Below are positions 3,113-21,551 of a stretch of DNA of 55,621 nucleotides, in pieces. The stretch spans positions 1 through 55,621 of IMG/VR virus record IMGVR_UViG_3300033153_013781; one strand, written 5' to 3'. Every line of letters begins with the position of its first letter. Position 1 is the stretch's first letter. The DNA is from a virus (lineage: Duplodnaviria; Caudoviricetes). The notes under the pieces are model-generated. The model did not search any database and was not told the origin of the DNA. It saw only the letters and a list, made by a program, of their open reading frames with translations. The position numbers and the translations under genes were made by a program.

Positions 3113-3160
3113 AATTTTCTCCGTTAATAGTTTAGGATAAATCGTTGTTCAAATACAGGT

Positions 3161-3331: not shown

Positions 3332-3768
3332 AGTTGAGGCAAACTCCGAGGATATTTATTTGTTGGATTATAAAGATGTATACACGCCACACAAGGCCAA
3401 ATTTTTCTTAATTGTTTGCGTAAACTGGACGCCTCAGATTCATAATGAACCATTTGACCATATTCGGGTTTTGCATTGACACTATATATTTGCACATCTT
3501 CTCTTCCAAAGATTTTTATCGTTAAACGATGGATTTTTAGTCGATAATCGGTATATTCTCGCAGCATCAATCTAAAATTTCCCGGATTTTTTATAAAACC
3601 GCAACAACACCCATGCAAAGCTCGTCGTACAATTTCGCCATTGAGAGTCGTAACATTGGTATCAACTTCATTGAAAATGTCTACAGCAATAGCCTGGACG
3701 GGATTCGAACCCGCGTTACCACCTTGAGAGAGTGGCGTGCTAACCGCTGCACTACCAAGCCGTATCAT
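3325..3768 (-). CDS. hypothetical protein reading in-frame through tRNA-Glu
   Basis: TAATG coupling to the radical SAM gene; paralogy with 3161..3331. Confidence 0.5.
   Translation of the reverse strand: MIRLGSAAVSTPLSQGGNAGSNPVQAIAVDIFNEVDTNVTTLNGEIVRRALHGCCCGFIKNPGNFRLMLREYTDYRLKIHRLTIKIFGREDVQIYSVNAKPEYGQMVHYESEASSLRKQLRKIWPCVACIHLYNPTNKYPRSLPQLC
3690..3761 (-). tRNA. tRNA-Glu(CTC)
   Basis: GGCTTGG..CCAGGCT A; anticodon arm CCACT-CTCTCAA-GGTGG. Confidence 0.9.
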
Positions 3769-4715: not shown

Positions 4716-5089
4716 GTTAGCTCCAGTTTCATATACTCTTCAGCAGAAATCATGTTTTCAGAATCAATCGAATCAGCTTTCAATTTGACTAACCAACCTT
4801 TTCCAAATGCATCATCATTGATTAATTCTGGATGATCTATCAATTCTTCATTGATTTCGATAATTTCACCGGGCATAGCAGCAAAAATTTCTGATGTAGC
4901 TTTAACAGATTCTACTTCTCCAATGTTACCGTTGACATCTATTTGAGTGCCTACAGAATACAATTCAACGTATGTGATATCTGTGAGAGTATCAGCAGCA
5001 TATTGGGTAATCCCAATTGTTACCGTATCACCCTCAATAAGAAACCATTCGTGAGAATTACTGTATTTTCTGTCTGTTGGTGCATTCAT
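4712..5089 (-). CDS. gcvH: glycine cleavage system H protein
   Basis: SHEW..GITQYA..VESVKA (lipoyl Lys)..GKGWLVK. Confidence 0.95.
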   Translation of the reverse strand: MNAPTDRKYSNSHEWFLIEGDTVTIGITQYAADTLTDITYVELYSVGTQIDVNGNIGEVESVKATSEIFAAMPGEIIEINEELIDHPELINDDAFGKGWLVKLKADSIDSENMISAEEYMKLELT

Positions 5090-5093
5090 AGTA

Positions 5094-5166
5094 TGGCCCT
5101 GGAGGGATTCGAACCCTCAACATTTACTTTAGAAGAGTAATGCTCGTCCGTTTGAGCTTCAGGGCT
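5094..5166 (-). tRNA. tRNA-Arg(TCT)
   Basis: Anticodon arm TTACT-CTTCTAA-AGTAA; T arm GAGGG-TTCGAAT-CCCTC. Confidence 0.9.
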
Positions 5167-5195
5167 ATTGTACTGGATATGGCTAGAAATGTCAA
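5167..5195 (-). promoter_or_regulatory. sigma70-type promoter
   Basis: TTGACA-N17-TACAAT; the -10 box abuts the tRNA-Arg 5' end. Confidence 0.6.
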
Positions 5196-5209
5196 GCCTA
5201 AAATTACAC

Positions 5210-7354: not shown

Positions 7355-8372
7355 CAGCAGGTTGGAGTAATTTCTCGCGTTTTTTTGCTCTATTTTCTCT
7401 TGAACGATCAGAAATTACTGGAGCAACTGGAGCAAATTGAGCAAATTGTTGTACAGGTTGTTGTACAGGTTGCTGTGGTTGAATCCTTTCAACAGCTTCA
7501 CCTTTTACTGTAAATACCTTTTCAACGAGATCTATAAAGAGAGGTAATAAATTTGTTTGTTCGTGGGCTCCTCCAAATTGATTTAAATCAACGGCAAGAT
7601 GATAATTTGTAGTGGCAGATACATTATCAAATCTGATCAAAAACTTAGAGACGCTTTGACTTGATACTTCTCCTGATTCTATTCTTTGCATAGCAGCATC
7701 TATGGCAGAAGTATCGTATTGTAGTTCTGTAAAAATTTGTTTCAATTCAGGAATTTGTTCAGGATTCAATCCTACCACCAACCAGTCATTAGGCAAAAGT
7801 TTAGCGTTACGTTGTAATGCTATACCTAATCGAGTTTGTATAGCGTGCCGAATAGGATTGTAAGCTTTGGCATTAGCATCGAGACCAGAAAAAAGAAAGG
7901 CTCTTTGTTTTTCAGGAATGTGAGAAGTCCAACTGAGAGCATAATTAGTTATGTTTCCTTGCTGTGGCATCATCTCAAAACGGGTTACTTTTTGACCCTT
8001 AGCATGTCGTCGATTTACTTGTTCTTGTGCCTGTTGTTCTCGAAGTTGTTTTCGCTGATTCAATTCACCGTTAAGACGATTTGTTTCAGCTCGTAAATGT
8101 GGAGCCATATTTTGAATATTGGCCAAACAATCCTGAATCACTTTGGCGGATAATAAAGCCTGTCCATTATTCTGTAAAATTAAATTTGTACCAGGATCAT
8201 TTTGAATTGCGTTGAACCAATATACACGGGATGGATCTTGGGATGGATTGGCTAAAATCTGATTAATCATGGTTTGTAGGCTATTTATGTTGGAAACCCC
8301 AAAGGAAACAGCGATTTCGCCGCCGTGAGCAGCTTTTTTTTCCATTTGAAATAATCGAAGGAGCCAATTCAT
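7245..8372 (-). CDS. probable N-terminal part of the SNF2 helicase (frameshifted)
   Basis: Overlaps the helicase ORF by 110 nt in a +1 frame offset; start MNWLL chosen. Confidence 0.65.
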   Translation of the reverse strand: MNWLLRLFQMEKKAAHGGEIAVSFGVSNINSLQTMINQILANPSQDPSRVYWFNAIQNDPGTNLILQNNGQALLSAKVIQDCLANIQNMAPHLRAETNRLNGELNQRKQLREQQAQEQVNRRHAKGQKVTRFEMMPQQGNITNYALSWTSHIPEKQRAFLFSGLDANAKAYNPIRHAIQTRLGIALQRNAKLLPNDWLVVGLNPEQIPELKQIFTELQYDTSAIDAAMQRIESGEVSSQSVSKFLIRFDNVSATTNYHLAVDLNQFGGAHEQTNLLPLFIDLVEKVFTVKGEAVERIQPQQPVQQPVQQFAQFAPVAPVISDRSRENRAKKREKLLQPAGEYYMQGKSKARFPKIACYEQIRYDRFISKSFDEGF

Positions 8373-8451
8373 ACATGTATTTGCTCCACAAAAAAGCAAA
8401 AACCTGTTTTGTGTCCTTGACTATTTTAGGAAATTATGGTAGATTAGAACC

Positions 8452-8685
8452 ATGGAGCTTTATAAAATCATATTACACAGTTGTGAGGCCGTAGATTTTG
8501 TTGTGGTAACATTTGCTTTACAAAAAGTGATGAACTGGGAATTTATTCGTGCATATCAATTCTGCCAAGAAGCAGATCAGAATGGCACCAGTGTACTCTG
8601 CATTGCTTCTTCTCAAAAAGCTCACGATTATATTTTAGAGCTAGAAGAAGAAGGTGGATTGCTTGTCGAACAAGTTCCAATTTAA
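8452..8685 (+). CDS. clpS: ClpS-like adaptor protein
   Basis: YKIILH..VVVTFALQKV..AYQFCQEADQNGTSV pattern; lacks the usual NDD motif; TTGACT-N17-TAGATT just upstream. Confidence 0.6.
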   Translation: MELYKIILHSCEAVDFVVVTFALQKVMNWEFIRAYQFCQEADQNGTSVLCIASSQKAHDYILELEEEGGLLVEQVPI

Positions 8686-8686
8686 T

Positions 8687-8761
8687 TCTGGGAGAGAGGA
8701 TTCGAACCTCTGACTTCCTGGTTCCGGGCCAGGTACTCTAACCGGACTGAGCTACACCCAG
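8687..8761 (-). tRNA. tRNA-Pro(CGG)
   Basis: CTGGGTG..CTCCCAG A; loop CC-CGG-AA. Confidence 0.9.
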
Positions 8762-8825
8762 TATGTGCGATGACGAGGATGTCATCGCAGAAATGCCAAT
8801 TCGTGCAAATTGACATATGGCAGGT

Positions 8826-9203
8826 TTACCACCACAAACCCCTGAAATTTTTGCCAAAAAGAGTCAAACCTTCCTGAAGTTTCTTGTAATAGATTTTCAC
8901 TTCTTCGTCTGTTAAATCATCAGGATGAATAAAGTCTCCGCCATTACTTTTGGCAATTTGCTCCATAGACCAAATCATCTTGTTGACCATTCGACACCAT
9001 TCTGCATTTCTTCCACAATTTGAACAATCATCGCGGAATTCGTTTTCGTGAAATCTTTTGAGACGTGGAGCTACAAATTTTGCTATTGTGAATTCGAGAC
9101 TGAAAGTATCTTCATCGATGAATCCTTGTTTGTGTCGTTGCTTCCATTCGCGCCAGAATGTTCGAGTAAAGATTCGTGGACGGTAAAAAGTAATCTTAAT
9201 CAT
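8826..9203 (-). CDS. hypothetical phage protein
   Basis: AGGAG RBS; ends GLTLFGKNFRGLWW. Confidence 0.75.
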   Translation of the reverse strand: MIKITFYRPRIFTRTFWREWKQRHKQGFIDEDTFSLEFTIAKFVAPRLKRFHENEFRDDCSNCGRNAEWCRMVNKMIWSMEQIAKSNGGDFIHPDDLTDEEVKIYYKKLQEGLTLFGKNFRGLWW

Positions 9204-9277
9204 GTTATTCTCCTACACAGCGTTGTTGCTGCTCAGAAAATTGTCATTCGATACATATTATTCTCCTTCTTATTAAA

Positions 9278-9352
9278 TCGGGATGAGAAGATTTGAACTT
9301 CCGCTCTCATGTTCCCCGAACATGCGCTTTTACCAGACTAAGCTACACCCCG
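9278..9352 (-). tRNA. tRNA-Pro(GGG)
   Basis: CGGGGTG..CATCCCG A; loop TC-GGG-GA. Confidence 0.9.
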
Positions 9353-9355
9353 TAA

Positions 9356-9428
9356 TACCCTGGACGAGACTCGAACTCGCATTCTCCACCTTGAAGAGTG
9401 GCGACTTAACCAATTTGTCCACCAGGGC
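9356..9428 (-). tRNA. Glu-like tRNA with a 6-nt anticodon loop
   Basis: GCCCTGG..CCAGGGT A; CCACT-CTTCAA-GGTGG. Confidence 0.7.
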
Positions 9429-9433
9429 AAAAC

Positions 9434-9505
9434 TACCCCATGCGAGTATCGATCTCGCTTCTTCTGCCTGAAAAACAGAAATCATAGCCAGTAGACCAAT
9501 GGGGC
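9434..9505 (-). tRNA. tRNA-Glu(TTC)
   Basis: GCCCCAT..ATGGGGT A; TCTGT-TTTTCAG-GCAGA; atypical T loop ATCGATA. Confidence 0.75.
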
Positions 9506-9511
9506 TTAAAT

Positions 9512-9730
9512 AAACATCGCGAAAGTTCTTGTTGCAAGGAATAAACGTAGAGCTCTATCCAATTGAGCTACAGCGGCGTAGTGCCACCGTGGGTATCCGA
9601 CTCTCCGAATATTTATGGATATGCCGTATTCCTGGTGGCGAAATAGAAAAGCCGCTGACAGGACTCGAACCTGTAACCTCTGGTTTAAAAGACCAATTGT
9701 TTGTATGCACCAAATGTAGGTCGCGATGTC
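9512..9730 (-). ncRNA. circularly permuted tRNA-Lys(TTT)-like / YrlA-like RNA
   Basis: 3' half (9650-9694) precedes 5' half (9549-9577); ends pair ACATCGCGA/TCGCGATGT. Confidence 0.85.
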
Positions 9731-9733
9731 TAA

Positions 9734-9804
9734 AGCGTCCGACGAGAATCGAACTCGTATTTTAACGTTGGCAACGTTATGTAATACCACTATACCACGG
9801 ACGC
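9734..9804 (-). tRNA. tRNA-Gly(GCC)
   Basis: GCGTCCG..CGGACGC T; TAACG-TTGCCAA-CGTTA. Confidence 0.9.
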
Positions 9805-9810
9805 ATATAA

Positions 9811-9971
9811 AACATCGCAAAAGTTTTTAATGCTGAAATAAACTATGCGCTCTGCCAATTGAGCTATCTCCCGTGAAAACCGATTGTCGTAATCGGGAGA
9901 ACAGGATTCGAACCTATATCACATCCTCCGAATGGAATTGTTTGTATGCATTAACCATTGGTTGCGATGTC
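9811..9971 (-). ncRNA. second circularly permuted tRNA-like / YrlA-like RNA (Pro-type acceptor)
   Basis: 3' half (9893-9936) precedes 5' half (9846-9873); ends pair ACATCGCAA/TTGCGATGT. Confidence 0.85.
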
Positions 9972-10685
9972 TTAAATTATTTTATATTTTTTTGCCCATT
10001 TTCGAATAGTATTATCAGAAACTCCGTATTTCCGACCGATAGCACACCATGAAGAACTCTTTATCATCTTAGCCAAAGCTTGCTTTGATGGACGATCAAC
10101 TTTGCGAAAACGGCTGTTATCTATTCTAAAACATTTGTGACACATTCCAGTTTTTGCTTTACGGGATACTTCTCCATTACATTTTTTGCATTTGATCGGA
10201 GGTCTTTTATTTGCTCTTCCTGCGAATGTCGATTGTTGACTATTACAATTTGGACATAATAATCGTAAATTTTCTATTCTGTTGTCGTCTCTTGTTCCAT
10301 TTATATGGTCTAATACTAAAACTAACAATTTCCCTTTCCATATCGGTTTTTGACAACATGTTGAGCATATGTTCTTCAGAATGTTGTCATTTATAAGCCT
10401 TGTTTTTAAATGACCACGATCAAAGGTGGAATTTTTAACTAGCAATTGTTCGAGAGGCATTTTCTCTTTAGGAAATTTTCTACCTTTTACAGAAATTAAA
10501 ATATGAGAGAAATCAATTTTATCATCTGCGAGTCTCTTTTTTAAACTCCTAAATCGGCTTCCGCCATTCGAAGGACACAACCCTAGTTCAATAAGAATTT
10601 GGGAATATGTTTTGCTTCTTTTGACTGCTTCTTTCAAATGTTGTTTTGATATTGTCCATATTGGACTAGTTTTTATTTTATTCAT
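9972..10685 (-). CDS. HNH endonuclease with C-terminal HTH
   Basis: LDHINGTRDDNRIENLRLLCPNC; SWCAIGRKYGVSDNTIRKW. Confidence 0.9.
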   Translation of the reverse strand: MNKIKTSPIWTISKQHLKEAVKRSKTYSQILIELGLCPSNGGSRFRSLKKRLADDKIDFSHILISVKGRKFPKEKMPLEQLLVKNSTFDRGHLKTRLINDNILKNICSTCCQKPIWKGKLLVLVLDHINGTRDDNRIENLRLLCPNCNSQQSTFAGRANKRPPIKCKKCNGEVSRKAKTGMCHKCFRIDNSRFRKVDRPSKQALAKMIKSSSWCAIGRKYGVSDNTIRKWAKKYKII

Positions 10686-10767
10686 ATGTTCTCCAATAAT
10701 GATTATACATTACTTAGAGACCACACTGGTAACACTCCTTTTTTATTTTTTGGAGTTCTGCCACTAA

Positions 10768-10838
10768 AGCATCTAGCGGGATTTGCACCCGCGCCGTCAC
10801 TTTGGAAGAGTGAAATGCAACTACTACACTATAGACGC
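10768..10838 (-). tRNA. tRNA-Gly(TCC)
   Basis: GCGTCTA..TAGATGC T; TCACT-CTTCCAA-AGTGA. Confidence 0.85.
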
Positions 10839-10921
10839 ATAACGCACCCATTATACAATATCGCATAATGGGTGCGATTGTAGACATCCTAAATTAAACC
10901 CTATTCAATTTTTTATAACCG

Positions 10922-10997
10922 TTGTTTTGACCTTTTTGTTGACGTCAACAAAATGGTGTTAACCATTTTCCTGATGCCAGGAATATGGTCAAAACAA
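10922..10997. repeat. branched palindrome (two hairpins inside a terminal inverted repeat)
   Basis: TTGTTTTGACC..GGTCAAAACAA encloses TTTTGTTGACGTCAACAAAA and ACCATTTTCCTG..CAGGAATATGGT. Confidence 0.7.
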
Positions 10998-11040
10998 ATT
11001 AATGTCCACAGAGTCTTGCCGTAGCTCACTGCTTCTTCGG

Positions 11041-11238
11041 TTATCCTACTTTTGTTACTACCTTAACCACAGCTTTATAAATACCGTAGTAAGGACCTAA
11101 ATCTTTAGTTAATTGATCCAAATCTTCTTGTGCTTCTGATTTAGTCCAATGCATTTTCATGTTAATAGTTTTTTCAATGCCCGGAATTTTTTTATCTTTC
11201 CGATTGGTCATAATCAAAAAAACTTCTGTATCTTTCAT
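11041..11238 (-). CDS. hypothetical protein
   Basis: Start MKDTEVF with GGAG RBS after tRNA-His. Confidence 0.6.
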   Translation of the reverse strand: MKDTEVFLIMTNRKDKKIPGIEKTINMKMHWTKSEAQEDLDQLTKDLGPYYGIYKAVVKVVTKVG

Positions 11239-11249
11239 AATTACTCCAA

Positions 11250-11322
11250 TCCCGGCAGTGGGATTCGAACCCATCTCTTACTGTTCCACAGACAGTCGTG
11301 CTTCCATTTACACCTTACCGGG
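11250..11322 (-). tRNA. tRNA with His(GTG) anticodon
   Basis: CCCGGTA..TGCCGGG A; ACTGT-CTGTGGA-ACAGT. Confidence 0.85.
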
Positions 11323-11637
11323 TTTTCTTAGATGTCCCTCGTCCCTCGTTAACATCGCCCATAATTCTAATTCAAGTTCAATAGCATCTTGAATCGGTTG
11401 AGGTATTTTAAGTTCTCTATTTACAAACGTTTCCTTCATACGTCGCAGATTAAATTTCAGTGAATCTATCGGTGTCATTCCCGGTGAATTCCCAATCGTT
11501 CTCATAATATTTGCAATTCGTTCTATTCCTTCTTTCGTACAACAAATCTTCAAATAGAGCCATTCAGAATATTCCGGACTCGTAATACGACGAGGTCTTT
11601 TTGTTTTTGCAAATACTTTTTTAATTTCTTCAATCAT
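11308..11637 (-). CDS. hypothetical protein (stop inside tRNA-His)
   Basis: 109 aa ORF between tRNAs. Confidence 0.6.
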   Translation of the reverse strand: MIEEIKKVFAKTKRPRRITSPEYSEWLYLKICCTKEGIERIANIMRTIGNSPGMTPIDSLKFNLRRMKETFVNRELKIPQPIQDAIELELELWAMLTRDEGHLRKPGKV

Positions 11638-11639
11638 AA

Positions 11640-11714
11640 TCGTGACGGAGGGATTCGAACCCGTCTGCCTCTCGCTTATGAAACGAGCGCTCTAACCAAT
11701 TGAGCTACGTCACG
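11640..11714 (-). tRNA. tRNA(CAT), elongator Met or Ile2
   Basis: CGTGACG..CGTCACG A; CTCGT-TTCATAA-GCGAG; no initiator features. Confidence 0.85.
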
Positions 11715-11744
11715 TCAAACCGCTGAGCGTTACTCTTGTCGGAT

Positions 11745-11816
11745 TCCACCCTTATCCATAAGTTTGACCCGATACGGATTACACCAAGCAACTCGGGTCA
11801 ACGTTACTTGGAAGTG
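11745..11816 (-). ncRNA. candidate kissing-loop RNA element
   Basis: Two hairpins whose loops TTGACCCGA and TCGGGTCAA are complementary. Confidence 0.55.
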
Positions 11817-11827
11817 CTAACACTAAA

Positions 11828-11898
11828 AGCCTCCTGAGAGAATCGAACTCTCGTCCGCTGTTTACAAAACAGCAATTCTTCCATTGAACCAAGGAGGC
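11828..11898 (-). tRNA. tRNA-Thr(TGT)
   Basis: GCCTCCT..AGGAGGC T; GCTGT-TTTGTAA-ACAGC. Confidence 0.9.
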
Positions 11899-11942
11899 AC
11901 GATGGATACCCGAAAGTACCCAAAGCGATCCGGCAAACAAAA

Positions 11943-12020
11943 TGTAGTGAACGGGTGACGATCCCGCGTCTTCAGGGTCCGTCACCCTGATGATTTCTCC
12001 AAACCGTAATCTACCACCAC
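11943..12020 (-). tRNA. atypical tRNA (loop centre ACG, Arg?)
   Basis: GTGGTGG..TCACTAC A; 6-bp stem TCAGGG-TGACGGA-CCCTGA; T loop ATCGTCA. Confidence 0.6.
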
Positions 12021-12084
12021 AAATAGAGGTCCCGATTATTTCAACCCATTCAGCCGCTCGGGACCACACAGCTTCCGGAGTATC

Positions 12085-12109
12085 TGGAATCATAGAGAAT
12101 CGAACTCTA
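12085..12109 (-). pseudogene. tRNA 3' fragment
   Basis: TAGAG-TTCGATT-CTCTA-TGATTCC-A with no 5' half adjacent. Confidence 0.6.
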
Positions 12110-12110
12110 G

Positions 12111-12329
12111 TTAATTTTTCGTTGTCTCTTTGGTAACTTTATCAACCCAATGGCTACACCCATCATCTATTTTTACAAGAGGACGCTCCCAAGTCGAGTA
12201 AGTATTCTTCACTCGACCTTGATGTTCTACCGAAACAGGAGGATTTAGATAACACACATGTTTCCCTGCGCTCGTTGTTGTTTTCTCTTCTTCTATCTTC
12301 ATGTATTGACAATTTTCACATTTGTTCAT
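12111..12329 (-). CDS. small Cys-containing protein
   Basis: CENC..CYLNPP..RPLV..DGCSHW; AGGA RBS. Confidence 0.7.
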   Translation of the reverse strand: MNKCENCQYMKIEEEKTTTSAGKHVCYLNPPVSVEHQGRVKNTYSTWERPLVKIDDGCSHWVDKVTKETTKN

Positions 12330-12339
12330 AACAATTTCC

Positions 12340-12927
12340 TTATGTTAATTCCTTAATTTTGTTCCGTGGAGTTAAGACTTTGTAATCAAATATCCATACT
12401 CCATTCACTTTTTTCAGATGCCTAACAGCGTGACAACTGTAACAAACTACTTCTAAGTTAGACATTTTATTGTTTTTTCTATTACCATCTTTATGGTGAA
12501 CTACAAGTTTATATTTTTTCTTTTCGCAACATCCGACACATCCTTTTAAGAACTTTTTTTTGCATTTTTCTCGATATGAATATTCTCCATATCCGGTTCC
12601 ATAATGTGCGGGCTGTATTGCTTTGCAATCTCCTTCTAAACTTTGAGCAAAATCCTTACATTTTCTGCCACAAAAATAAACTCCATGTTTTGAATTTTTA
12701 AGTTTTGAAGGAGTTATTTGCTTGCTCTTTTTGCAAATCTCACATTTTACAATTACTTTGTTTTGTTTCGCTTTAGCAGCACATGCTGTGGTGCAGTATC
12801 TCTTTTTTCCGTATCCTGGATTCGGCTTAAGTCTACGAATAAATTCAATATTACAAATTCCACAATTTGCTTTTTCTCCTTTTCTTTTATGTCCGTCGTT
12901 CTCGCAAAAAAATACTATTTCATTCAT
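12340..12927 (-). CDS. HNH endonuclease with Zn fingers
   Basis: VHHKDGNRKNNKMSNLEVVCYSCH. Confidence 0.9.
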   Translation of the reverse strand: MNEIVFFCENDGHKRKGEKANCGICNIEFIRRLKPNPGYGKKRYCTTACAAKAKQNKVIVKCEICKKSKQITPSKLKNSKHGVYFCGRKCKDFAQSLEGDCKAIQPAHYGTGYGEYSYREKCKKKFLKGCVGCCEKKKYKLVVHHKDGNRKNNKMSNLEVVCYSCHAVRHLKKVNGVWIFDYKVLTPRNKIKELT

Positions 12928-13009
12928 AATGAATCCCCTAATAATCTATTAGAAGATTCGTTTAAATTTTGGAAGACTCCTCTTTTGCTCCAAAGATTTT
13001 ATATTCCAC

Positions 13010-13081
13010 TGGAAATATTCGGGTACGATCCGAAAATTTTGCCGTGCAAGGGCAATGTGATCCCAATTTCACCATATCCCC
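13010..13081 (-). tRNA. tRNA-Ala(TGC)
   Basis: GGGGATA..TATTTCC A; TTGCC-CTTGCAC-GGCAA. Confidence 0.8.
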
Positions 13082-13085
13082 TTAA

Positions 13086-13134
13086 CCCGCAGTTCGAGAC
13101 CGTCTTGACCTGACCTGCGGGGACATCAGTCTCG
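13086..13134 (-). ncRNA. candidate pseudoknot with HDV-like topology
   Basis: CGAGACT/GGTCTCG, CCCGCAG/CTGCGGG and GTC/GAC nested pairings. Confidence 0.5.
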
Positions 13135-13151
13135 GGACGGAAATTTGTTAT

Positions 13152-13349
13152 TCATTCTTCCTTTGAAAGCCGTGCAGCTCTTTCATTTTCTCGCATAATG
13201 GTTTCATACACTTCCTTGCGATGAACCGATATGTTTTTTGGAGCATTGATGCCGATACGAACTTTATCACCTCGTATATCGACTATCTTTATTTCGATAT
13301 TATCTCCAATCATAATTGTTTCTTCACGTTCTCTTGACAATACTAACAT
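13152..13349 (-). CDS. csrA: carbon storage regulator CsrA
   Basis: [34 protein letters not shown]. Confidence 0.97.
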
Positions 13350-13361
13350 TTTTGAATCCTT

Positions 13362-13565
13362 TCATTTTTCTGGCTCTTCCTTGAAAGCCTTGACTGCACT
13401 TTCGATCTTCTGAACGAAAGCGTTATGACATTTTGCACAAAGAAGACCTTTCCAGAGTCCTTTGTCCAGTATTAAATCACATTTCCAAACGAGTTCGAAA
13501 AAATTGATGAATCGCTTGGTTTTTGATGCTTTTAATGCTATGCCACATTTAGAACACTTGCTCAT
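13362..13565 (-). CDS. small Zn-binding hypothetical protein
   Basis: CSKC..CAKCH; GAAGG RBS. Confidence 0.65.
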   Translation of the reverse strand: MSKCSKCGIALKASKTKRFINFFELVWKCDLILDKGLWKGLLCAKCHNAFVQKIESAVKAFKEEPEK

Positions 13566-13581
13566 TGGTCTTGTCCTTCGA

Positions 13582-14301
13582 CTAAATTATTTCATACTGT
13601 CGTGCCCATTTTCGAACGGCGTTGTCAGAAACTCCAAATTTACGACCAATGGCACACCAAGATTCTTCATCTATCATTTTTTTAAGCTGTTCCTTTGACG
13701 GTCTTTTGCATTTTCTCTTACTAATACTACAGCATTCTGGAGAGCAGTATCTAACAGAATGATATTTAGGCAAAAAAGTTTTTTTACAGTGAATGCATTT
13801 TTTCTTAACAATCTTATTTTGTTTTTCGCATTTTTTCAATGTTAACTCGCGATCTTTTGCATATGGTTTGTCATGAACTTCTGCATGACAATTTTGACAA
13901 AGCAAATCGCATTTATCAACTTCTTTCTTTACCACTTTCCACGATCTACAATGTCCATATCTGGAGATTGTAAAATCTTTTTGTTTTGGATCTCTGTGAT
14001 GGAATGCATATGCCCCAGGAACAGGTTTGTCATAACCGCACAAAATGCATTTGCCACCTTTATAAGCAAAAAGTTTAAGTTTCTGTTTTCTTCTCCATTT
14101 TGTTACACTTATTACCCATCGTTTTCTTTTGCGTTTTAATTTTTCCTCATTAGTATTGTCATCATTCAAAGCGGAACGAGTATTGTGCTTATTGAATGGA
14201 GAACAATCTAAGCAAAATTTTCGCTTTTGAAGGTTCCTGATTTTTCCGTCAATTTCAATCTTGTTCTTAAAATCTTTACTGCATTTTTTGCATGTTGGCA
14301 T
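13582..14301 (-). CDS. HNH endonuclease with C-terminal HTH
   Basis: FHHRDP..CDLLCQNCHAEVH; SWCAIGRKFGVSDNAVRKW; start MPTCKK. Confidence 0.9.
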   Translation of the reverse strand: MPTCKKCSKDFKNKIEIDGKIRNLQKRKFCLDCSPFNKHNTRSALNDDNTNEEKLKRKRKRWVISVTKWRRKQKLKLFAYKGGKCILCGYDKPVPGAYAFHHRDPKQKDFTISRYGHCRSWKVVKKEVDKCDLLCQNCHAEVHDKPYAKDRELTLKKCEKQNKIVKKKCIHCKKTFLPKYHSVRYCSPECCSISKRKCKRPSKEQLKKMIDEESWCAIGRKFGVSDNAVRKWARQYEII

Positions 14302-14367
14302 ATGTATACCCCTTTCAGGGTTACATACGTCGAACTGTAGTCTAAAACCTTTAACAAAATTGTTAAC

Positions 14368-14455
14368 CTCCAAGGGCTGGATTCGAACCAGCGATGGGAC
14401 TTGCGTCACGCCTGATTAACAGTCAGGTGCCTGCTACCAACTCGGCTACCTTGGA
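14368..14455 (-). tRNA. tRNA-Asn(GTT) with long variable arm
   Basis: TCCAAGG..CCTTGGA G; CCTGA-CTGTTAA-TCAGG; 18-nt variable region with GAC-GCAA-GTC. Confidence 0.85.
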
Positions 14456-14470
14456 TTAAGGGATTAATCT

Positions 14471-14490
14471 CTATTTAATTTTCAAAGAAC
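14471..14490 (-). promoter_or_regulatory. boxA-like antitermination site
   Basis: GTTCTTTGAAAATTAAATAG; similar copies at 15847, 16408, 17149 (-) and 20931 (+). Confidence 0.6.
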
Positions 14491-14500
14491 TATCAATTTG

Positions 14501-14540
14501 ATGGAAGAATTCGAACCTCCACCAATTGAACTATCTCGGA
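14501..14540 (-). pseudogene. internally deleted tRNA remnant
   Basis: TCCGAGA-TA-GTTC-AATTGGT fused to GGAGG-TTCGAAT-TCTTC. Confidence 0.5.
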
Positions 14541-14562
14541 TCATATTTACTTTTCAAAAAAC

Positions 14563-14796
14563 TTAATAGCCTAAAAAGTTAGCTATTTTCTTTTTGGTTC
14601 GTTCTGCTTTTCTTAATATTTCTCGCAACTCCCAGTCTGGTACAATTTTTACATTTTTTATGTTGTGCCATTCTGTTGAACCGTCATATATTCGTTCAGT
14701 TAGAATCAGATGTTCTTGTTGTTCTGAATATTTTTTTGCAAGAAATAAATCAGATCCATCACCATTAACTCTACAAATCGATCCGATTTCTATCAT
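14563..14796 (-). CDS. hypothetical protein
   Basis: 77 aa ORF with AAGGA RBS. Confidence 0.65.
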   Translation of the reverse strand: MIEIGSICRVNGDGSDLFLAKKYSEQQEHLILTERIYDGSTEWHNIKNVKIVPDWELREILRKAERTKKKIANFLGY

Positions 14797-14815
14797 GATC
14801 TATCCTTAATAAAAA

Positions 14816-15099
14816 ATTCGTTACCGTCGCTATCACGGTCTACGGGCTCCGACGCGATTAAGCTTTAGCCCGCGTGCTTCCACTTCCTAACTTTCATATT
14901 CAGCATTGAGTCTTGTGAACTTGAGCCTGTCCAGACTTTCTTCTGGCTCACGGTTTTTTTAAAGCATAATCGCATGTTGCTCTTCTTAAGTTCTCGCCAC
15001 TATTTCGCAAATATTAATCGGTCATCTATCAATGATACATGACGTACTAATATTGCTTTTCCTGAATATATACTCGCTTCGGCATTACACTATAACGAA
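14816..15099 (-). ncRNA. 284-nt tRNA-framed structured RNA
   Basis: Acceptor TTCGTTA/TAACGAA; D stem GTGT/GCAC around a ~200-nt insert; 15/16-bp long-range pairing. Confidence 0.75.
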
Positions 15100-15101
15100 A
15101 A

Positions 15102-15176
15102 TCCGGGAGAGAGGACTCGAACCTCCAACCTCAGGCTTCCAGAGCCCGCCGTCTAGCCAATTGACATTACACCCGG
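15102..15176 (-). tRNA. tRNA-Pro(TGG)
   Basis: CCGGGTG..CTCCCGG A; CGGGC-TCTGGAA-GCCTG. Confidence 0.85.
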
Positions 15177-15179
15177 TTA

Positions 15180-15198
15180 TCGGAGTGACAGGATTTAA
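15180..15198 (-). pseudogene. tRNA-Pro 3' fragment
   Basis: AAATCCTGT-CACTCCG-A. Confidence 0.55.
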
Positions 15199-15242
15199 TA
15201 ATTATTAAAAGGAATCCATCACGATTTTTCCTAAAGTACTAT

Positions 15243-15854
15243 ATGCAAAAAATACAATGCTTTCAATGTAAGAATAATTTCATTCCCAATAAAGATCATA
15301 AATATGATCACAAAACAAGAGGAATGCGTCGTTCATTTTGCACTCAAAAGTGCTACAGAGCCGCTCAAGATAGTCGAACCATTATTTCTTGTGCTAATTG
15401 CGGAAACAAAAAATCAATTACTGCCTCAGATCGTCGTCAATCCAAAAGTGGTCGATCTTTCTGCAACAAATCTTGTGCCGCTACTTACAACAATAAGCTG
15501 AAAAGAAAAGTTCGCAGATCAAAATGCGAAATAGCTCTATTTCAAATGCTCACTGATGCATTCCCAAAAATTACCGTCCTTCCTAACAACAAAACTATGC
15601 TTGATGGCTATGAAGTTGATATTGCTGTCCCTTCAATAAAATTAGCTATTGAGTGGAATGGAATAGTCCACTTTAAGCCTATCTACGGACAAATGAAACT
15701 TAATAAGATTCAACAGCGAGATGCTGAGAAACAAAAAATTGCATCAAATAAAGGAATAAATCTTATCATTATTTCTGATCTTGTTTCTACTCAAACTCGT
15801 GTTAATGAAGCTTTTGTAGAAATTCAAAAAATCATTAAGCAACTTACTATTTAA
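15243..15854 (+). CDS. Zn-finger + PD-(D/E)XK (Vsr/DUF559-like) endonuclease
   Basis: YEVDIAVPSIKLAIEWNGIVH..RDAEK; N-terminal CxxC..FCxxxC repeats. Confidence 0.8.
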   Translation: MQKIQCFQCKNNFIPNKDHKYDHKTRGMRRSFCTQKCYRAAQDSRTIISCANCGNKKSITASDRRQSKSGRSFCNKSCAATYNNKLKRKVRRSKCEIALFQMLTDAFPKITVLPNNKTMLDGYEVDIAVPSIKLAIEWNGIVHFKPIYGQMKLNKIQQRDAEKQKIASNKGINLIIISDLVSTQTRVNEAFVEIQKIIKQLTI

Positions 15855-15868
15855 TTTTCAAATAACAC

Positions 15869-15943
15869 TCCGGGAGGAGAGATTTGAACTCTCAGTCTCA
15901 GCGTCCCAAACGCTGCGGATTAACCAGATTTTCCTATACTCCG
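15869..15943 (-). tRNA. chimeric tRNA-Pro(TGG) with mispaired acceptor stem
   Basis: CAGCG-TTTGGGA-CGCTG intact, but 5' CGGAGTA pairs poorly with 3' CTCCCGG. Confidence 0.65.
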
Positions 15944-16317
15944 TATCTTTCTTCCCAATGCAATATTCTGTGACATTTGCAACAGAGTGTTTCACACTTA
16001 GATATTTCCTTCTTGATTTTATCTATTGACATTCCTCTGCGTGAGGCATCTGCAATAGTAAAATCTTTTTCTCCTTTGTTATGGTGAAAATCCAGAACTC
16101 TAAAATCGTCTTCGCCACACTTTTTGCATATTAATTCTTTTTTGAATTCATTCAACCATATCCTAATTTTACGCCGTCTTATATTTTTCGTCTCTTGATA
16201 GCATTTTTGGCATTTCCATCTTCGATATTCTTTGCCTTTGACAATATTGGCTATCTCAAATTTCTTTATCGGACATCTGGTATTACAATACTTGCAAATT
16301 CTTGTTTTTGGTTCCAT
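15934..16317 (-). CDS. HNH endonuclease
   Basis: CKKCGEDDFRVLDFHH..CETLCCKCHRILH. Confidence 0.9.
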   Translation of the reverse strand: MEPKTRICKYCNTRCPIKKFEIANIVKGKEYRRWKCQKCYQETKNIRRRKIRIWLNEFKKELICKKCGEDDFRVLDFHHNKGEKDFTIADASRRGMSIDKIKKEISKCETLCCKCHRILHWEERYGV

Positions 16318-16424
16318 TGAAATTTACCTCCAATAGAATATTCCAAAACAATCACCTGTTCTCCTTTGGGATACCAGATCGTTTCCCCAAACATTTTTAT
16401 TTCCACATATTTGATTTTCAAAGA

Positions 16425-16452
16425 GCGGATTACCAAATTTTCCTACACCCGG
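16425..16452 (-). pseudogene. tRNA-Pro 5' fragment
   Basis: CCGGGTG-TA-GGAAAATTTGGTAATCC-GC. Confidence 0.65.
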
Positions 16453-16682
16453 TTTATTTTCTTTCTTCCTACATGCCAACCATTACAAAACCGACATCTA
16501 TAATGCTCCAATGAGTTTCTTGTGCTTTCCTTTGCATTCATTTCTTTTGCTGCTCTAATTGCAGAAGATTCTTTTGGATACATAATTTTTATTTCACAAG
16601 AATAATGCCAATCGATTATGGAGGTATATTTAATAATACATCGATAAATAAATTCCCATAACCATCGCATTTTCATTCTCAA
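16443..16682 (-). CDS. hypothetical protein (YRCxxCxGWHVG)
   Basis: Zn-ribbon-like C-terminus. Confidence 0.7.
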   Translation of the reverse strand: MRMKMRWLWEFIYRCIIKYTSIIDWHYSCEIKIMYPKESSAIRAAKEMNAKESTRNSLEHYRCRFCNGWHVGRKKINRV

Positions 16683-16755
16683 TAGGCTGAGTGGGACTCG
16701 AACCCACGATTTCTTCCTTATCAGGGAAGCGATTTTGCCACTAATCTACCAGCCC
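16683..16755 (-). tRNA. tRNA-Ile(GAT)
   Basis: GGGCTGG..TCAGCCT A; CTTCC-CTGATAA-GGAAG. Confidence 0.9.
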
Positions 16756-16972
16756 TCTTTTTTACTATCACTGTCACTGCTAATGGTTGTTCATTTTCAT
16801 CAACATCGATACAGATTTCTCCCCAGTCTTCGATGTAAGCCAATTTTGTATGATGTGCTTCACCGATTTCAACTGGTTTAAATTCTGCATCATAAATCAT
16901 AAGCATAGAGTCATCGTTACCTTTTATTTCGGTAACAAATGATTTTGTATTATTAGTTATCATTTTGCACAT
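16721..16972 (-). CDS. hypothetical protein (stop inside tRNA-Ile)
   Basis: GAGG RBS before MCKM; reads into the tRNA up to a TGA in the anticodon loop. Confidence 0.55.
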   Translation of the reverse strand: MCKMITNNTKSFVTEIKGNDDSMLMIYDAEFKPVEIGEAHHTKLAYIEDWGEICIDVDENEQPLAVTVIVKKRAGRLVAKSLP

Positions 16973-16986
16973 TTTATTTACCTCAA

Positions 16987-17057
16987 TAACCCTGGCGAGA
17001 TTCGAACTCACACTAAAATCTTCGCAGGATCTCGTGCTTCCATTACACTACAGGGTT
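16987..17057 (-). tRNA. tRNA-Arg(GCG)
   Basis: AACCCTG..CAGGGTT A; AGATC-CTGCGAA-GATTT. Confidence 0.85.
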
Positions 17058-17061
17058 CTAA

Positions 17062-17135
17062 TGGGCGAGGTGGGACTCGAACCCACATAACACCTCCGTG
17101 TAAGAGAGGCACTTGGCCAATTAAGTTACACGCCC
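17062..17135 (-). tRNA. tRNA-Val(TAC)
   Basis: GGGCGTG..CTCGCCC A; CCTCT-CTTACAC-GGAGG. Confidence 0.9.
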
Positions 17136-20879: not shown

Positions 20880-20904
20880 GGGGGCGTAGCTTAGTGGTTA
20901 AAAG
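20880..20904 (+). pseudogene. tRNA 5' fragment
   Basis: GGGGGCG-TA-GCTT-AGTGGTTAAAAG; complementary to CGCCCCC-A at 21701-21708. Confidence 0.55.
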
Positions 20905-20959
20905 GGACGGTAGGTTTTAATTTTTCGTAGGTTCTTTGATAATTGAATAAAAAAAGAAT

Positions 20960-21265
20960 GGGCTCCTAGCTCAATTGGTTAGAGCAAACGACTCATCTAT
21001 ATGGTGCGTTCATAAGGAAACTTTTGAAATGAACGGGATGAATTCAGGGGAACCTCAGCATGTAATGATGGTGGCAATCCTGAGCCAAGCCTGCGGTACA
21101 CCGCAGGAAGGTGCAGAGACTAGTGGAGAGGTATAGTCCTCTTAATAACCACATTAGCGTCCCGCGTTCTAACGTAAAGTCGAGGATGGTGATATAGTCC
21201 AGCGAGTCAAGAAATTGACATTAAGCTGAATCGTTAGGTTGTGGGTTCGAGTCCCACGGAGCCCA
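20960..21265 (+). tRNA. tRNA-Ile2(CAT) interrupted by a group I intron
   Basis: GGGCTCC..GGAGCCC A; exons join to AACGA-CTCATAA-TCGTT. Confidence 0.9.
20997..21228 (+). mobile_element. group I intron (IC3-like), 232 nt
   Basis: AATCCTGAGCCAAG, GTGCAGAGACT and GATATAGTCC core motifs; exon U pairs with IGS GTG; ends in G. Confidence 0.92.
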
Positions 21266-21551
21266 GTTCTAGTAACTTGTTGTCGAATTCCCAATGGCAA
21301 TTTCGACAGAATAATAGTAAGTTACTGTTAGCGTTGACTTCAGCAATAGTAGCAATTGGAAGGAAATCGGAGATTGGTTTAATGTGACAGGTTTCTACGT
21401 GTTTATTGTAACTACAGTTGAAACATACTTGGGGACGCGATTTTGTCTTCTTGTAAATTAACCTTTGATAAGGAAGTGGGAAAACTTCTAAAAACCTGCT
21501 ATGATCAATGGGTAGCTTATTATCGAAATGAACGAATAGGAATTTATTCAT
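21234..21551 (-). pseudogene. HNH endonuclease remnant
   Basis: CFNC..VETCHIKPIS..NLLLFCRNCHWEFD; N-terminus looks degraded; antisense to the tRNA 3' exon. Confidence 0.65.

What the first reader, a model, noticed from the sequence alone, without database searches (positions are those of the whole stretch)
14816..15099. 284-nt RNA built on a tRNA frame with a giant D-loop insert and long pseudoknot
Seen (minus strand, directly after tRNA-Pro): perfect acceptor TTCGTTA/TAACGAA, TA linker and D stem GTGT/GCAC. The D loop holds about 200 nt of nested helices (ATATTCAG/CTGAATAT, AATATTAGT/ATTAATATT, GTCAT/ATGAC, GAACTT/AAGTTC). The anticodon-position stem CGGGCT/AGCCCG has an 18-nt loop, and the T-like arm is CCGT-GATAGCG-ACGG. 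The enlarged loop TAAAGCTTAATCGCGT (14852-14867) pairs 15/16 with ATGCGATTATGCTTTA (14960-14975) in the insert. I do not recognise it as tmRNA, RNase P, SRP or a group I intron. Inference: a new ncRNA cut out by tRNA-processing enzymes.
Basis: partly seen in the sequence, partly recalled or inferred. Interest (0 to 1): 0.85.

Follow-up and report, generated by a model that had tools for sequence, protein, structure and literature searches.

The report
Structured RNA in phage tRNA array
A 283-base non-coding RNA gene sits where a tRNA would sit in a marine phage's tRNA cluster, keeps its fold in related phages, matches no known RNA family, and may be a tRNA-derived RNA with a new, untested job.

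Summary
The stretch is non-coding and matches no Rfam family at E<=10.

Contigs of four marine runs hold 91-95% identical copies. Their differences support the fold:
- Three pairs changed on both sides and stayed paired; 6 of 20,000 permutations reach that.
- Most one-sided stem changes give G.U only on the minus strand.
- Homology stops exactly at the ends of the terminal 7-bp stem.
- tRNAs abut the element in two relatives.
- In one relative the whole domain closed by helix C (173 nt) is replaced by 166 other letters, while the ends stay.

So this is a real, clade-restricted structured RNA gene occupying a tRNA slot.

- It is not a tRNA or tmRNA by ARAGORN or Rfam, even with the insert removed in silico.
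- The "T loop" is non-canonical and varies in length.
- The pseudoknot is plausible but unproven. Its two end pairs break in relatives, and 8 of 300 shuffles match it.
- Processing by tRNA enzymes is inferred from context only.
- No RNA data and no distant homologues were found.

The parts
14817..15099 (-). The whole RNA element (RNA positions 1-283; position = 15100 - coordinate)
   Evidence: In run X1 the homology block ends exactly at 14817 and 15099. X2, X3 and X6 cover it at 91-95% identity. No Rfam match. Not coding.
15093..15099 (-). Helix A, 5' strand (UUCGUUA, pos 1-7), acceptor-like
   Evidence: 7 of 7 pairs with 14817-14823. A7>G in X2 gives G-U. Other changes near the ends of the aligned pieces are not listed by the tool.
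14817..14823 (-). Helix A, 3' strand (UAACGAA, pos 277-283)
   Evidence: Followed by a U run in the window. In X6 it is followed after 4 nt by a tRNA-like 5' half (loose end).
15087..15090 (-). Helix B, 5' strand (GUGU, pos 10-13), 'D stem'
   Evidence: Pairs with 14874-14877. No listed variation in the partner strand, so untested.
14874..14877 (-). Helix B, 3' strand (GCAC, pos 223-226)
   Evidence: Lies in the 21-nt block with no listed change in any of the four relatives.
14898..15070 (-). Insert domain closed by helix C (pos 30-202, 173 nt)
   Evidence: In X1 exactly this block is replaced by 166 other letters, while 14817-14897 and 15071-15099 stay (table 5).
15062..15069 (-). Helix C, 5' strand (AUAUUCAG, pos 31-38)
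   Evidence: Pair 36/199 is C-G in the window, U-G in X2 and U-A in X3.
14896..14903 (-). Helix C, 3' strand (CUGAAUAU, pos 197-204)
   Evidence: G199>A in X3 and X6. Kept in the alifold consensus of window+X2+X3.
15010..15054 (-). Hairpin D (pos 46-90; 9+5+4 pairs)
   Evidence: 47/89 goes A-U to G-C and 53/83 goes G-U to U-A in X2. The G62.G74 mismatch becomes G.U (X2) or G-C (X3). 46, 47 and 66 go to G.U. The 54/82 pair is broken in X2.
14988..14993 (-). Helix E, 5' strand (GAACUU, pos 107-112); partner at 14917-14922
   Evidence: 6 of 6 pairs. No variation in the relatives, so untested.
14923..14949 (-). Hairpin F (pos 151-177)
   Evidence: Present in the MFE and in alifold. X6 changes fall in its loop, at pos 159 and 163.
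14960..14975 (-). Pseudoknot, 5' strand (pos 125-140)
   Evidence: 15 of 16 pairs with 14852-14867, -17.0 kcal/mol. U139>A in X2 breaks the pair with A234.
14852..14867 (-). Pseudoknot, 3' strand, in the 18-nt loop of hairpin G (pos 233-248)
   Evidence: G247>A in X1 and X6 would turn U126.G247 into U-A if U126 is unchanged; the partner is replaced in X1 and not listed in X6. U233>C in X6 breaks a pair. In X1, where the partner domain is replaced, all 4 listed substitutions and 2 indels fall in the 18-nt loop of hairpin G; 3 of the 4 substitutions lie in this strand and the fourth (pos 249) just after it.
14868..14888 (-). Purine-rich 21-nt block (pos 212-232) with no listed change in any relative
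   Evidence: No listed change in X1, X2, X3 or X6.
14843..14872 (-). Hairpin G (CGGGCU / 18-nt loop / AGCCCG, pos 228-257), 'anticodon-position' arm
   Evidence: The stem has no listed change except U233>C in X6.
14824..14838 (-). Hairpin T (CCGU-GAUAGCG-ACGG, pos 262-276)
   Evidence: The loop gains 2 nt in X6 and 3 nt in X1 (table 4).
15102..15176 (-). tRNA-Pro(UGG), 2 nt upstream of the RNA
   Evidence: ARAGORN. Rfam tRNA model, 33.2 bits.
14563..14796 (-). 77-aa ORF downstream; not part of the unit
   Evidence: The X2 contig joins 14524 to 14811 and so lacks it. No relatives in viral contigs. No Pfam hit.

Best explanation
This is a gene for a roughly 283-nt structured non-coding RNA that occupies one 'tRNA slot' of the phage's minus-strand tRNA operon.

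Shown:
- It is non-coding and belongs to no curated RNA family.
- It folds with its two ends paired in a 7-bp stem (A).
- Selection in related phages acts on RNA pairing in the minus-strand sense.
- It is modular. A conserved frame (pos 1-29 and 203-283: stems A, B, G, T and an unchanged purine-rich strand) carries a domain of about 170 nt closed by helix C. That domain can be exchanged or diverge wholesale.

Inferred:
- It is transcribed with the neighbouring tRNAs.
- The terminal stem, stacked on the adjacent 3' hairpin (11 bp in all, with U at -1), mimics the acceptor/T minihelix. RNase P would then make the 5' end, and the 3' trimming of the tRNA pathway would make the 3' end. The product would be a stable, closed RNA.
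- The 18-nt loop of hairpin G docks onto the insert through the long pseudoknot.

My guess for function, not tested: a tRNA-derived mimic. The frame would be the processing and stability handle. The insert plus the locked 'anticodon' loop would bind a host or phage factor that normally reads tRNAs, for example a tRNA-targeting defence nuclease.
For: Structure and strand:
- Listed differences in X2, X3 and X6 touch 10 pair-cells of the model. 8 stay canonical and 3 changed on both sides: 36/199 C-G to U-G to U-A, 47/89 A-U to G-C, 53/83 G-U to U-A.
- 6 of 20,000 position permutations reach 3 double changes. 1 of 20,000 reaches 8 kept with at most 2 broken.
- The G62.G74 mismatch becomes G.U in X2 and G-C in X3.
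- 6 of 8 one-sided changes at model positions (the G62.G74 mismatch included) give G.U, which pairs only in the minus-strand RNA.
- The alifold consensus of window+X2+X3 keeps A, C, D, F, G and T.
- The window's own MFE fold fits the changes worse: 18 pair-cells touched, 10 kept.

Non-coding:
- X2 carries five 1-nt indels.
- The only ORF (36 aa) is cut to 24 aa in X2, with 8 identical residues.

Discrete unit in a tRNA slot:
- The spacer to tRNA-Pro is 2 nt, like the 2-4 nt between other adjacent tRNAs of the array.
- In X1, homology stops at 14817 and 15099, and a different canonical tRNA 3' end abuts it.
- In X6 a tRNA-like 5' half starts 4 nt after it.
- X2 lacks the downstream ORF but keeps the RNA.

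Modularity:
- X1 replaces pos 30-202 by 166 letters.
- All 4 listed substitutions of X1 in the 3' frame lie in the G loop.

No known family: with a true group I intron found in the same scan as a positive control.

Precedent:
- RNase P cuts non-tRNA phage RNAs (passages of PMC11143913).
- Large ornate RNAs lie near tRNAs in prophages (passages of PMC5737381).
Against: - There are no expression data.
- Only four close relatives are known, seen as difference tables and not as sequences. X3 and X6 are contigs of depth below 5. X2 and X3 share some changes by descent, so the permutation figures are optimistic.
- Differences within about 30 nt of the ends of the aligned pieces are not listed, so helix A and hairpin T are almost untested.
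- Helices B, E and G never vary.
- The pseudoknot has 2 touched pairs and both are broken. Its length alone is matched by 8 of 300 shuffles.
- The MFE z-score is only -2.2.
- The RNA is not better conserved than its flanks. X2 has 3 differences in the 65 flank bases it covers, against 27 differences in the 314 bases over the RNA.
- BLAST and two single-sequence covariance models found nothing in 21 TerL-related phage records, two of them complete genomes. If functional, the RNA is dispensable for the wider lineage.
- The stem-plus-hairpin stack is 11 bp, not the 12 of tRNA. No CCA is encoded.
Confidence: 0.55

Rival explanations
1. A dead tRNA gene carrying an inserted, self-structured selfish element. 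A former tRNA of the array was disrupted in its D loop by a hairpin-closed element of about 170 nt. The conserved pairing belongs to that element, and the whole has no function in trans.
For: - The connector lengths of the frame copy a cloverleaf: 7 bp, 2 nt, 4 bp ... 4 bp, 1 nt, stem, 4 nt, hairpin, 7 bp.
- The block closed by helix C is swapped as a unit in X1.
- The array is full of mobile genes and holds another tRNA remnant at 14500-14541.
- The covariation found lies in C and D, that is, in the insert.
Against: - The frame is the best conserved part. The 21-nt and 17-nt blocks show no listed change in all four relatives, and the frame is retained in X1 while the insert diverges. That is the opposite of a decaying pseudogene.
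- No second copy of the insert exists in the window or in the related records.
Confidence: 0.15
2. A neutral spacer whose helices are chance. The relatives are simply close strains, and the compensatory changes are luck or assembly noise.
For: - Modest z-score.
- The pseudoknot is not beyond chance.
- The flanks are as conserved as the RNA.
- Low-depth contigs.
- Absent from 21 related records.
Against: - Three double-sided compensatory pairs in a model fixed beforehand; 6 of 20,000 permutations reach that.
- The key changes are shared between independent studies: pos 36 in X2 and X3, pos 199 in X3 and X6.
- The homology block ends exactly at the stem ends in X1.
Confidence: 0.12
3. A degenerate or atypical group I-like intron or ribozyme.
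- Helix C would be P3, and hairpin D would be P4-P5.
- Helices E and F together would be P6.
- The stretch at pos 180-196 would be the P6'/J6-7/P7 'R' element.
- A 4-bp helix 188-191/208-211 would cross helix C like P7.
For: - Pos 180-196 resembles the group I R element as I recall it (a recalled motif, no call).
- Pair 188/211 is G.U in the window, A-U in X2 and G-C in X3 (positions; pairing read by eye).
- The phage carries a real group I intron at 20984-21221.
Against: - The Rfam Intron_gpI model gives no hit at E<=10, even on the 292 nt alone.
- There is no P8 between the would-be P3' and P7'.
- A208>C in X6 breaks the 4-bp helix.
- The flanks are complete tRNAs and spacers, not exons, and the homology ends at helix A.
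Confidence: 0.06
4. A cis-acting leader or terminator controlling the 77-aa ORF just downstream.
For: A U run and then a Shine-Dalgarno-like AAGGA and ATG follow the RNA.
Against: - X2 keeps the RNA but lacks the ORF.
- X6 has a tRNA-like sequence there instead, and X1 has unrelated sequence.
- No terminator-like site is called at the RNA's 3' end.
- No riboswitch or T-box model matches.
Confidence: 0.03

Closest known systems
Stable non-tRNA RNAs of the phage T4 tRNA operon (species 1 and 2 RNAs; recalled, no call) and other phage RNase P substrates (phi80 M3 RNA, P1/P7 C4 RNA; passages of PMC11143913)
   Same: A non-tRNA RNA embedded among phage tRNA genes and presumably released by the host's tRNA-processing nucleases. 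Base-paired ends present a minihelix-like substrate.
   Different: - No sequence similarity to any record of the cultured-phage collection beyond the tRNA-Pro.
- This RNA is larger, with a multi-helix insert and a possible long pseudoknot.
- Processing has not been tested here.
tmRNA
   Same: Paired 5' and 3' ends with an adjacent 3' hairpin (tRNA-like ends) enclose a large internal domain with pseudoknotting. This is plausibly a tRNA-derived chimera.
   Different: - ARAGORN finds no tmRNA and Rfam gives no match.
- The third acceptor pair is C-G, not G.U (the identity rule is recalled).
- There is no canonical T loop.
- There is no conserved tag reading frame.
GOLLD and ROOL RNAs (Rfam; PMC5737381 passages)
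   Same: Ornate structured RNAs of unknown function. They are often next to tRNAs and in phage DNA, and are possibly co-transcribed with the tRNAs.
   Different: - No match to either model.
- This RNA is 283 nt, against a ROOL average of 581 nt.
- This RNA has a tRNA-like terminal frame and occupies a tRNA slot exactly.
tRNA (including unusual cloverleaves such as the 8/4 and 9/3 forms; PMC5389517, listing and start of abstract only)
   Same: 7-bp terminal stem, 2-nt and 1-nt connectors, 4-bp 'D stem', 4-nt 'variable' linker, and a 3' hairpin with a 7-nt loop abutting the 3' strand.
   Different: - About 209 nt where the D loop should be.
- An 18-nt 'anticodon' loop.
- A non-canonical T loop of variable length.
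- Not detected by any tRNA finder, even after in-silico removal of the insert.

Membership tests
tRNA | Recognised by tRNA covariance or heuristic models | tested here: not met
   ARAGORN and Rfam RF00005 tRNAs in the window but nothing at 14816-15099. No hit at E<=10 on the stretch alone. 0 of 61 constructs with the insert removed in a script are called, even with intron mode and a lowered threshold.
tRNA | 7-nt T loop of conserved sequence and fixed length | tested here: not met
   The loop is GAUAGCG (the consensus is recalled). It gains 2 nt in X6 and 3 nt in X1.
tRNA | 7-nt anticodon loop on a 5-bp stem | tested here: not met
   6-bp stem with an 18-nt loop.
tRNA | 7-bp acceptor stem abutting the T arm; cloverleaf connector lengths | tested here: met
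   7 bp, then UA, a 4-bp stem ... 4-bp stem, G, stem, UAGA, hairpin, 7 bp.
tmRNA | Detected by ARAGORN or the Rfam tmRNA models | tested here: not met
tmRNA | G3.U70 alanine identity pair and a conserved tag reading frame | tested here: not met
   The third pair is C-G. The only ORF (36 aa) is not kept in X2. The identity rule is recalled.
Group I intron | Match to the conserved core (Rfam RF00028) | tested here: not met
   No hit at E<=10. The same library finds a true intron at 20984-21221 with 94.2 bits.
Group I intron | Interrupts a gene whose exons flank it | tested here: not met
   The flanks are a complete tRNA-Pro and a spacer. In relatives other tRNAs abut the unit, and homology ends at helix A.
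Group I intron | P3/P7 pseudoknot | tested here: inconclusive
   A 4-bp 188-191/208-211 pairing crosses helix C. Pair 188/211 varies compatibly in X2 and X3, but pair 191/208 is broken in X6 (positions). There is no P8.
RNase P RNA, SRP RNA, 6S, T-box, Y-RNA-like | Match to the Rfam model | tested here: not met
   No family at E<=10 on the sense strand.
GOLLD / ROOL | Match to the Rfam model | tested here: not met
GOLLD / ROOL | Context: next to tRNAs in phage DNA | tested here: met
   The context rule comes from PMC5737381 passages.
Phage tRNA-operon stable RNA / RNase P substrate | Released from a tRNA precursor by RNase P and 3' processing | not testable with these tools
   No listed holder is on record as RNA. 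The idea rests on the 2-nt spacing and the stem-hairpin geometry only.

The most novel reading that the evidence does not exclude
A new class of tRNA-derived chimeric RNA, comparable in logic to tmRNA. A tRNA scaffold keeps the handles for RNase P, 3' trimming and perhaps CCA addition. It carries an exchangeable domain of about 170 nt in place of the D loop, and that domain is locked to an enlarged anticodon loop by a 14-16-bp pseudoknot. The phage would deploy it as a tRNA mimic that captures or blocks a tRNA-reading host factor, such as an anticodon nuclease of a defence system. The insert and loop would co-vary as a specificity module.
Probability: 0.15. Interest if true: 0.85.

Novelty: new variant of a known kind. 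Interest (0 to 1): 0.6.

Why it matters
Phage tRNA arrays are now seen as tools against host defences that attack tRNAs (PMC10264068 and PMC11464382; search listing and start of abstract only). The non-tRNA RNAs that sit in such arrays are almost unstudied.

This case is a compact RNA with a conserved fold that takes the exact place of a tRNA. It has tRNA-like ends and a swappable inner domain. If it is processed and stable, it would be a tractable example of how a tRNA gene can be rebuilt into a new functional RNA, which is the route usually imagined for tmRNA. It would also be a candidate RNA-based counter-defence or regulatory factor.

If it is only a disrupted tRNA, it still documents hairpin-closed insertions into tRNA genes of phage arrays.

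Tried and rejected
- Known families: Rfam at gathering score on the whole window, then at E<=10 on 551 nt and on 292 nt. Nothing on the sense strand. The only rows were the tRNA-Pro, a Streptococcus sRNA model downstream at E 7.7, and a 23-nt TYMV model on the other strand at E 5.8. All were rejected as chance.
- RNase P idea: the loop of hairpin F resembles the P4 strand of RNase P RNA as I recall it. But it is a local hairpin loop, two of its A's change to G in X6, and no RNase P model matches. Rejected.
- T-box idea: the unchanged block faintly resembles the T-box motif as recalled. There is no model match, and tRNAs rather than mRNAs follow the element in relatives. Rejected.
- Alternative pairing 18-25 with 244-251 (7 of 8 pairs, read by eye): G23>U and G25>U in X2 and X3 break it without compensation (positions). 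Rejected.
- Paralogues: two other gaps of about 285 nt after tRNAs (306-590, 8400-8686) do not align with the RNA. The apparent 1.9-kb gap at the window's end is an open-ended 722-aa ORF.
- Homologues through neighbouring proteins: the 77-aa ORF and the SNF2 helicase gave no related viral contigs. The helicase has only distant hits in cultured phages.
- Homologues through TerL: 25 IMG/VR loci at up to 71% identity. BLAST, model R1 and model R2 over the 21 of those 25 records that I passed on found only chance-level matches (best E 0.02-0.8).
- Cultured phages: blastn of 14700-15300 hit only the tRNA-Pro, in 30 Vibrio phage records.
- Pattern scans:
  - The 19-mer and the 21-mer found 0 in viral contigs.
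  - The 21-mer found 2 metagenome loci. Both are the same protein-coding gene, so these are chance matches. That spent the metagenome scan.
  - The gapped frame pattern found 0 in viral contigs and 0 in genome contigs.
  - The 17-mer found 2 viral loci, again inside one protein gene.
- Expression: no RNA holder is listed among the 14 runs returned.
- Promoters and terminators: a -35/-10-like site lies at 15266-15238(-), upstream of tRNA-Pro. But 12 sites were found against 10.7 expected, and no terminator was called at the RNA. These are not used as evidence.
Supplementary files of papers were not consulted.
- Papers:
  - PMC5737381 and PMC11143913 were seen as passages.
  - PMC10264068, PMC11464382 and PMC5389517 were seen only as a search listing with the start of the abstract.
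  - The T4 species 1 and 2 RNAs are recalled. The search did not bring a paper on them.
  - Searches brought no description of an RNA like this one. That is no proof that none is in print.
Full report
CONTEXT
- The window is a 55.6-kb fragment of an uncultured phage (an IMG/VR record, about 40% complete by CheckV).
- It carries a minus-strand array of tRNA genes from 31 to 17135. ARAGORN tRNAs in the window and Rfam 23.
- Cys-rich, HNH-like small ORFs are interspersed among them.
- The large terminase belongs to a lineage found on metagenomic contigs of up to 522 kb. The closest IMG/VR relative has 71% TerL identity.

THE OBSERVATION
I number the RNA as position = 15100 - window coordinate.
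- The long loop pairing (pos 125-140 with 233-248) has 15 pairs of 16, one of them G-U, and -17.0 kcal/mol as a duplex.
With the pseudoknot added it would be the better fold.
- From the window alone the signal is modest. The z-score is -2.23. A 16-nt helix with one mismatch appears in 8 of 300 shuffles.

NOT A KNOWN FAMILY, NOT CODING
- Rfam gives nothing on the sense strand at E<=10, on 551 nt or on 292 nt. The same library finds 23 tRNAs and a bona fide group I intron (94.2 bits) elsewhere in the window.
- ARAGORN calls neither a tRNA nor a tmRNA. That held for 61 of 61 script-made constructs in which the 'D-loop' insert was removed, with intron mode and a lowered threshold.
- The only ORF inside is 36 aa. 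In relative X2 it is cut to 24 aa with 8 identical residues. X2 also carries five 1-nt indels across the element.

RELATIVES
BLAST, a full-length single-sequence covariance model (R1) and a model of the 3' 82 nt (R2) found no homologue in 21 TerL-related IMG/VR records, in cultured phages, or by exact-motif scans of three collections. The few motif hits lie in protein genes.

The sequencing-run index did find partial holders in marine and marine-sediment metagenomes. I laid the contigs of four runs, from four studies, on 14300-15400:
- X2: a 989-nt contig covers 14811-15124 with 22 substitutions and 5 gaps. It joins 14524 directly to 14811, so the 77-aa ORF downstream of the RNA is absent.
- X3: a contig covers 14814-15124 with 16 substitutions and 4 gaps.
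- X6: a contig covers 14813-14994. Beyond 14813 it runs into sequence that reads like the 5' half of a tRNA.
- X1: a 2,195-nt contig keeps only 14817-14897 and 15071-15099. It has 166 other letters in place of the 173 between them. A canonical tRNA T-arm and acceptor 3' strand lie directly upstream of 15099, and unrelated sequence lies downstream of 14817.

The unit therefore has sharp borders at the two strands of the terminal stem. tRNAs abut it in different arrangements. Its 2-nt distance from tRNA-Pro equals the 2-4-nt spacing of other adjacent tRNAs in this array.

COVARIATION
I mapped the listed differences onto it.
- Pair 36/199 of the long-range helix C is C-G in the window, U-G in X2 and U-A in X3. 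The U36 change is shared by X2 and X3, and A199 by X3 and X6, so neither is an assembly error.
- In hairpin D, 47/89 goes A-U to G-C and 53/83 goes G-U to U-A in X2.
- The G62.G74 mismatch becomes G.U in X2 and G-C in X3.
- Positions 7, 46, 47 (in X3) and 66 change to give G.U.
- Two terminal pairs break: 54/82 in X2 and 233/252 in X6.
- Overall, 10 pair-cells are touched, 8 stay canonical, and 3 changed on both sides. Random re-placement of the same substitutions reaches 3 double changes in 6 of 20,000 trials, and reaches 8 kept with at most 2 broken in 1 of 20,000. Shared ancestry of X2 and X3 makes these figures somewhat optimistic.
- Six of the eight one-sided changes (counting the G62.G74 mismatch) produce G.U. 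That is a pair only in the minus-strand transcript, which argues for selection on RNA and fixes the strand.
- The window's own MFE fold lacks helix C and fits worse: 18 touched, 10 kept.
- RNAalifold on window+X2+X3, rebuilt inside a script, returns A, C, D, F, G and T.

WHAT IS NOT SUPPORTED
- Helices B, E and G show no informative variation.
- Differences within about 30 nt of the ends of the aligned pieces are not listed by the tool, so A and T are nearly untested.
- The pseudoknot has two touched pairs (139/234 in X2, 140/233 in X6) and both break. If real, it is 14 bp long.
- G247>A in X1 and X6 would improve U126.G247, but the partner position is not visible in either run.
- Indirect support for the pseudoknot: in X1, where the partner domain is replaced, all 4 listed substitutions and 2 indels of the otherwise unchanged 3' frame fall in the G loop. 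X2 and X3 keep the insert and show no change there. Without the X1 letters this cannot be checked.
- The T-like loop is not canonical, and it gains 2 nt in X6 and 3 nt in X1. It is not a T loop in the tRNA sense.

ANATOMY
- The element is a frame plus a module.
- Frame: pos 1-29 and 203-283. It holds terminal stem A, the 4-bp stem B, a large internal loop whose 3' strand (pos 212-232, purine-rich) has no listed change in any of the four relatives, hairpin G with an 18-nt loop, and hairpin T abutting the 3' strand of A.
- Module: pos 30-202, closed by helix C. It holds hairpin D, helix E, hairpin F and the 5' strand of the pseudoknot.
- The module is what X1 replaces.

MECHANISM
- Shown: a conserved, modular RNA fold on the minus strand that forms a discrete unit in a tRNA slot.
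- Inferred: co-transcription with the tRNAs; a 5' end made by RNase P acting on the stack of stem A and hairpin T (11 bp, with U at -1); a 3' end made by the tRNA 3' pathway.
- Precedents: RNase P cuts non-tRNA phage RNAs (PMC11143913 passages). Large ornate RNAs lie beside tRNAs in prophages and may be co-transcribed with them (PMC5737381 passages).
- Function is a guess: a tRNA-derived mimic that uses the frame for maturation and stability, and the module plus the locked loop to bind a tRNA-reading factor. This would fit the current view of phage tRNA arrays as counter-defence (PMC10264068, PMC11464382; listing and start of abstract only).

RIVALS
- A dead tRNA with an inserted structured element (0.15). 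The frame being the best conserved part argues against it.
- A neutral spacer (0.12). The compensatory changes and the sharp borders argue against it.
- An atypical group I-like RNA (0.06). There is a recalled R-element-like stretch and a 4-bp P7-like knot with mixed support, but no model match, no P8 and no exons.
- A leader of the downstream ORF (0.03). The ORF is absent in X2.

VERDICT
- The interpretation 'new ncRNA' is supported at moderate strength.
- 'tRNA frame' is a resemblance that fails the membership tests.
- 'Cut out by tRNA enzymes' and the pseudoknot remain inferences.
- The family is narrow: four marine relatives, and none in 21 related phage records.
- Interest 0.6. The kind, a structured RNA embedded in a phage tRNA operon, is known. 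This architecture is not.

Noticed in passing
window 20984-21221 (+): Bona fide group I intron (Rfam RF00028, 94.2 bits, E 5e-23), lying in the gap 20880-21442 between ORFs of the plus-strand block.
   Followed up: no
window 14368-14455 (-): ARAGORN calls an 88-nt tRNA-Asn(GUU) (Rfam tRNA model 57.8 bits). Its length comes from what I read as a long variable arm. That arm is unusual for an Asn anticodon and may mean a recoded or chimeric tRNA.
   Followed up: partly
window 14500-14541 (-): A tRNA remnant. An acceptor/D-arm-like 5' part runs directly into a GGUUCGAAU T-arm-like part with no anticodon arm. Neither ARAGORN nor Rfam calls it. The X2 contig keeps only its 3' part, joined 6 nt after the RNA.
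   Followed up: partly
window 9355-9429 (-): ARAGORN reports a tRNA of undetermined identity with a two-base anticodon call (tc). Rfam scores it 52.9 bits. It may have a non-standard anticodon loop. It is packed 2 and 4 nt from its neighbours.
   Followed up: no
window 15872-15942 (-): Rfam tRNA hit (41.1 bits) that ARAGORN does not call. It overlaps the start region of an HNH-like 127-aa ORF (15934-16317).
   Followed up: no
window 41688-42857 (-): A 389-aa ORF matches PHROG 506 'transposase' (E 3e-115) in a phage structural/replication block. It is on the opposite strand to its neighbours. Whether a guide-RNA-like region flanks it was not examined.
   Followed up: no
window 28863-30167 (+) and 31693-36165 (+): A 434-aa ORF has Hint/intein and LAGLIDADG domains. 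A 1490-aa ribonucleotide reductase ORF has extra helicase/primase/endonuclease-like segments, suggesting inteins. Many TerL relatives also carry inteins.
   Followed up: no
window 12340-12927, 13582-14409, 15243-15854, 15934-16317: Four Cys-rich ORFs that look like HNH or endonuclease genes sit between the tRNA genes. The two that were scanned have no Pfam hit. They look like free-standing homing endonucleases and may drive the indel turnover seen around the RNA.
   Followed up: partly
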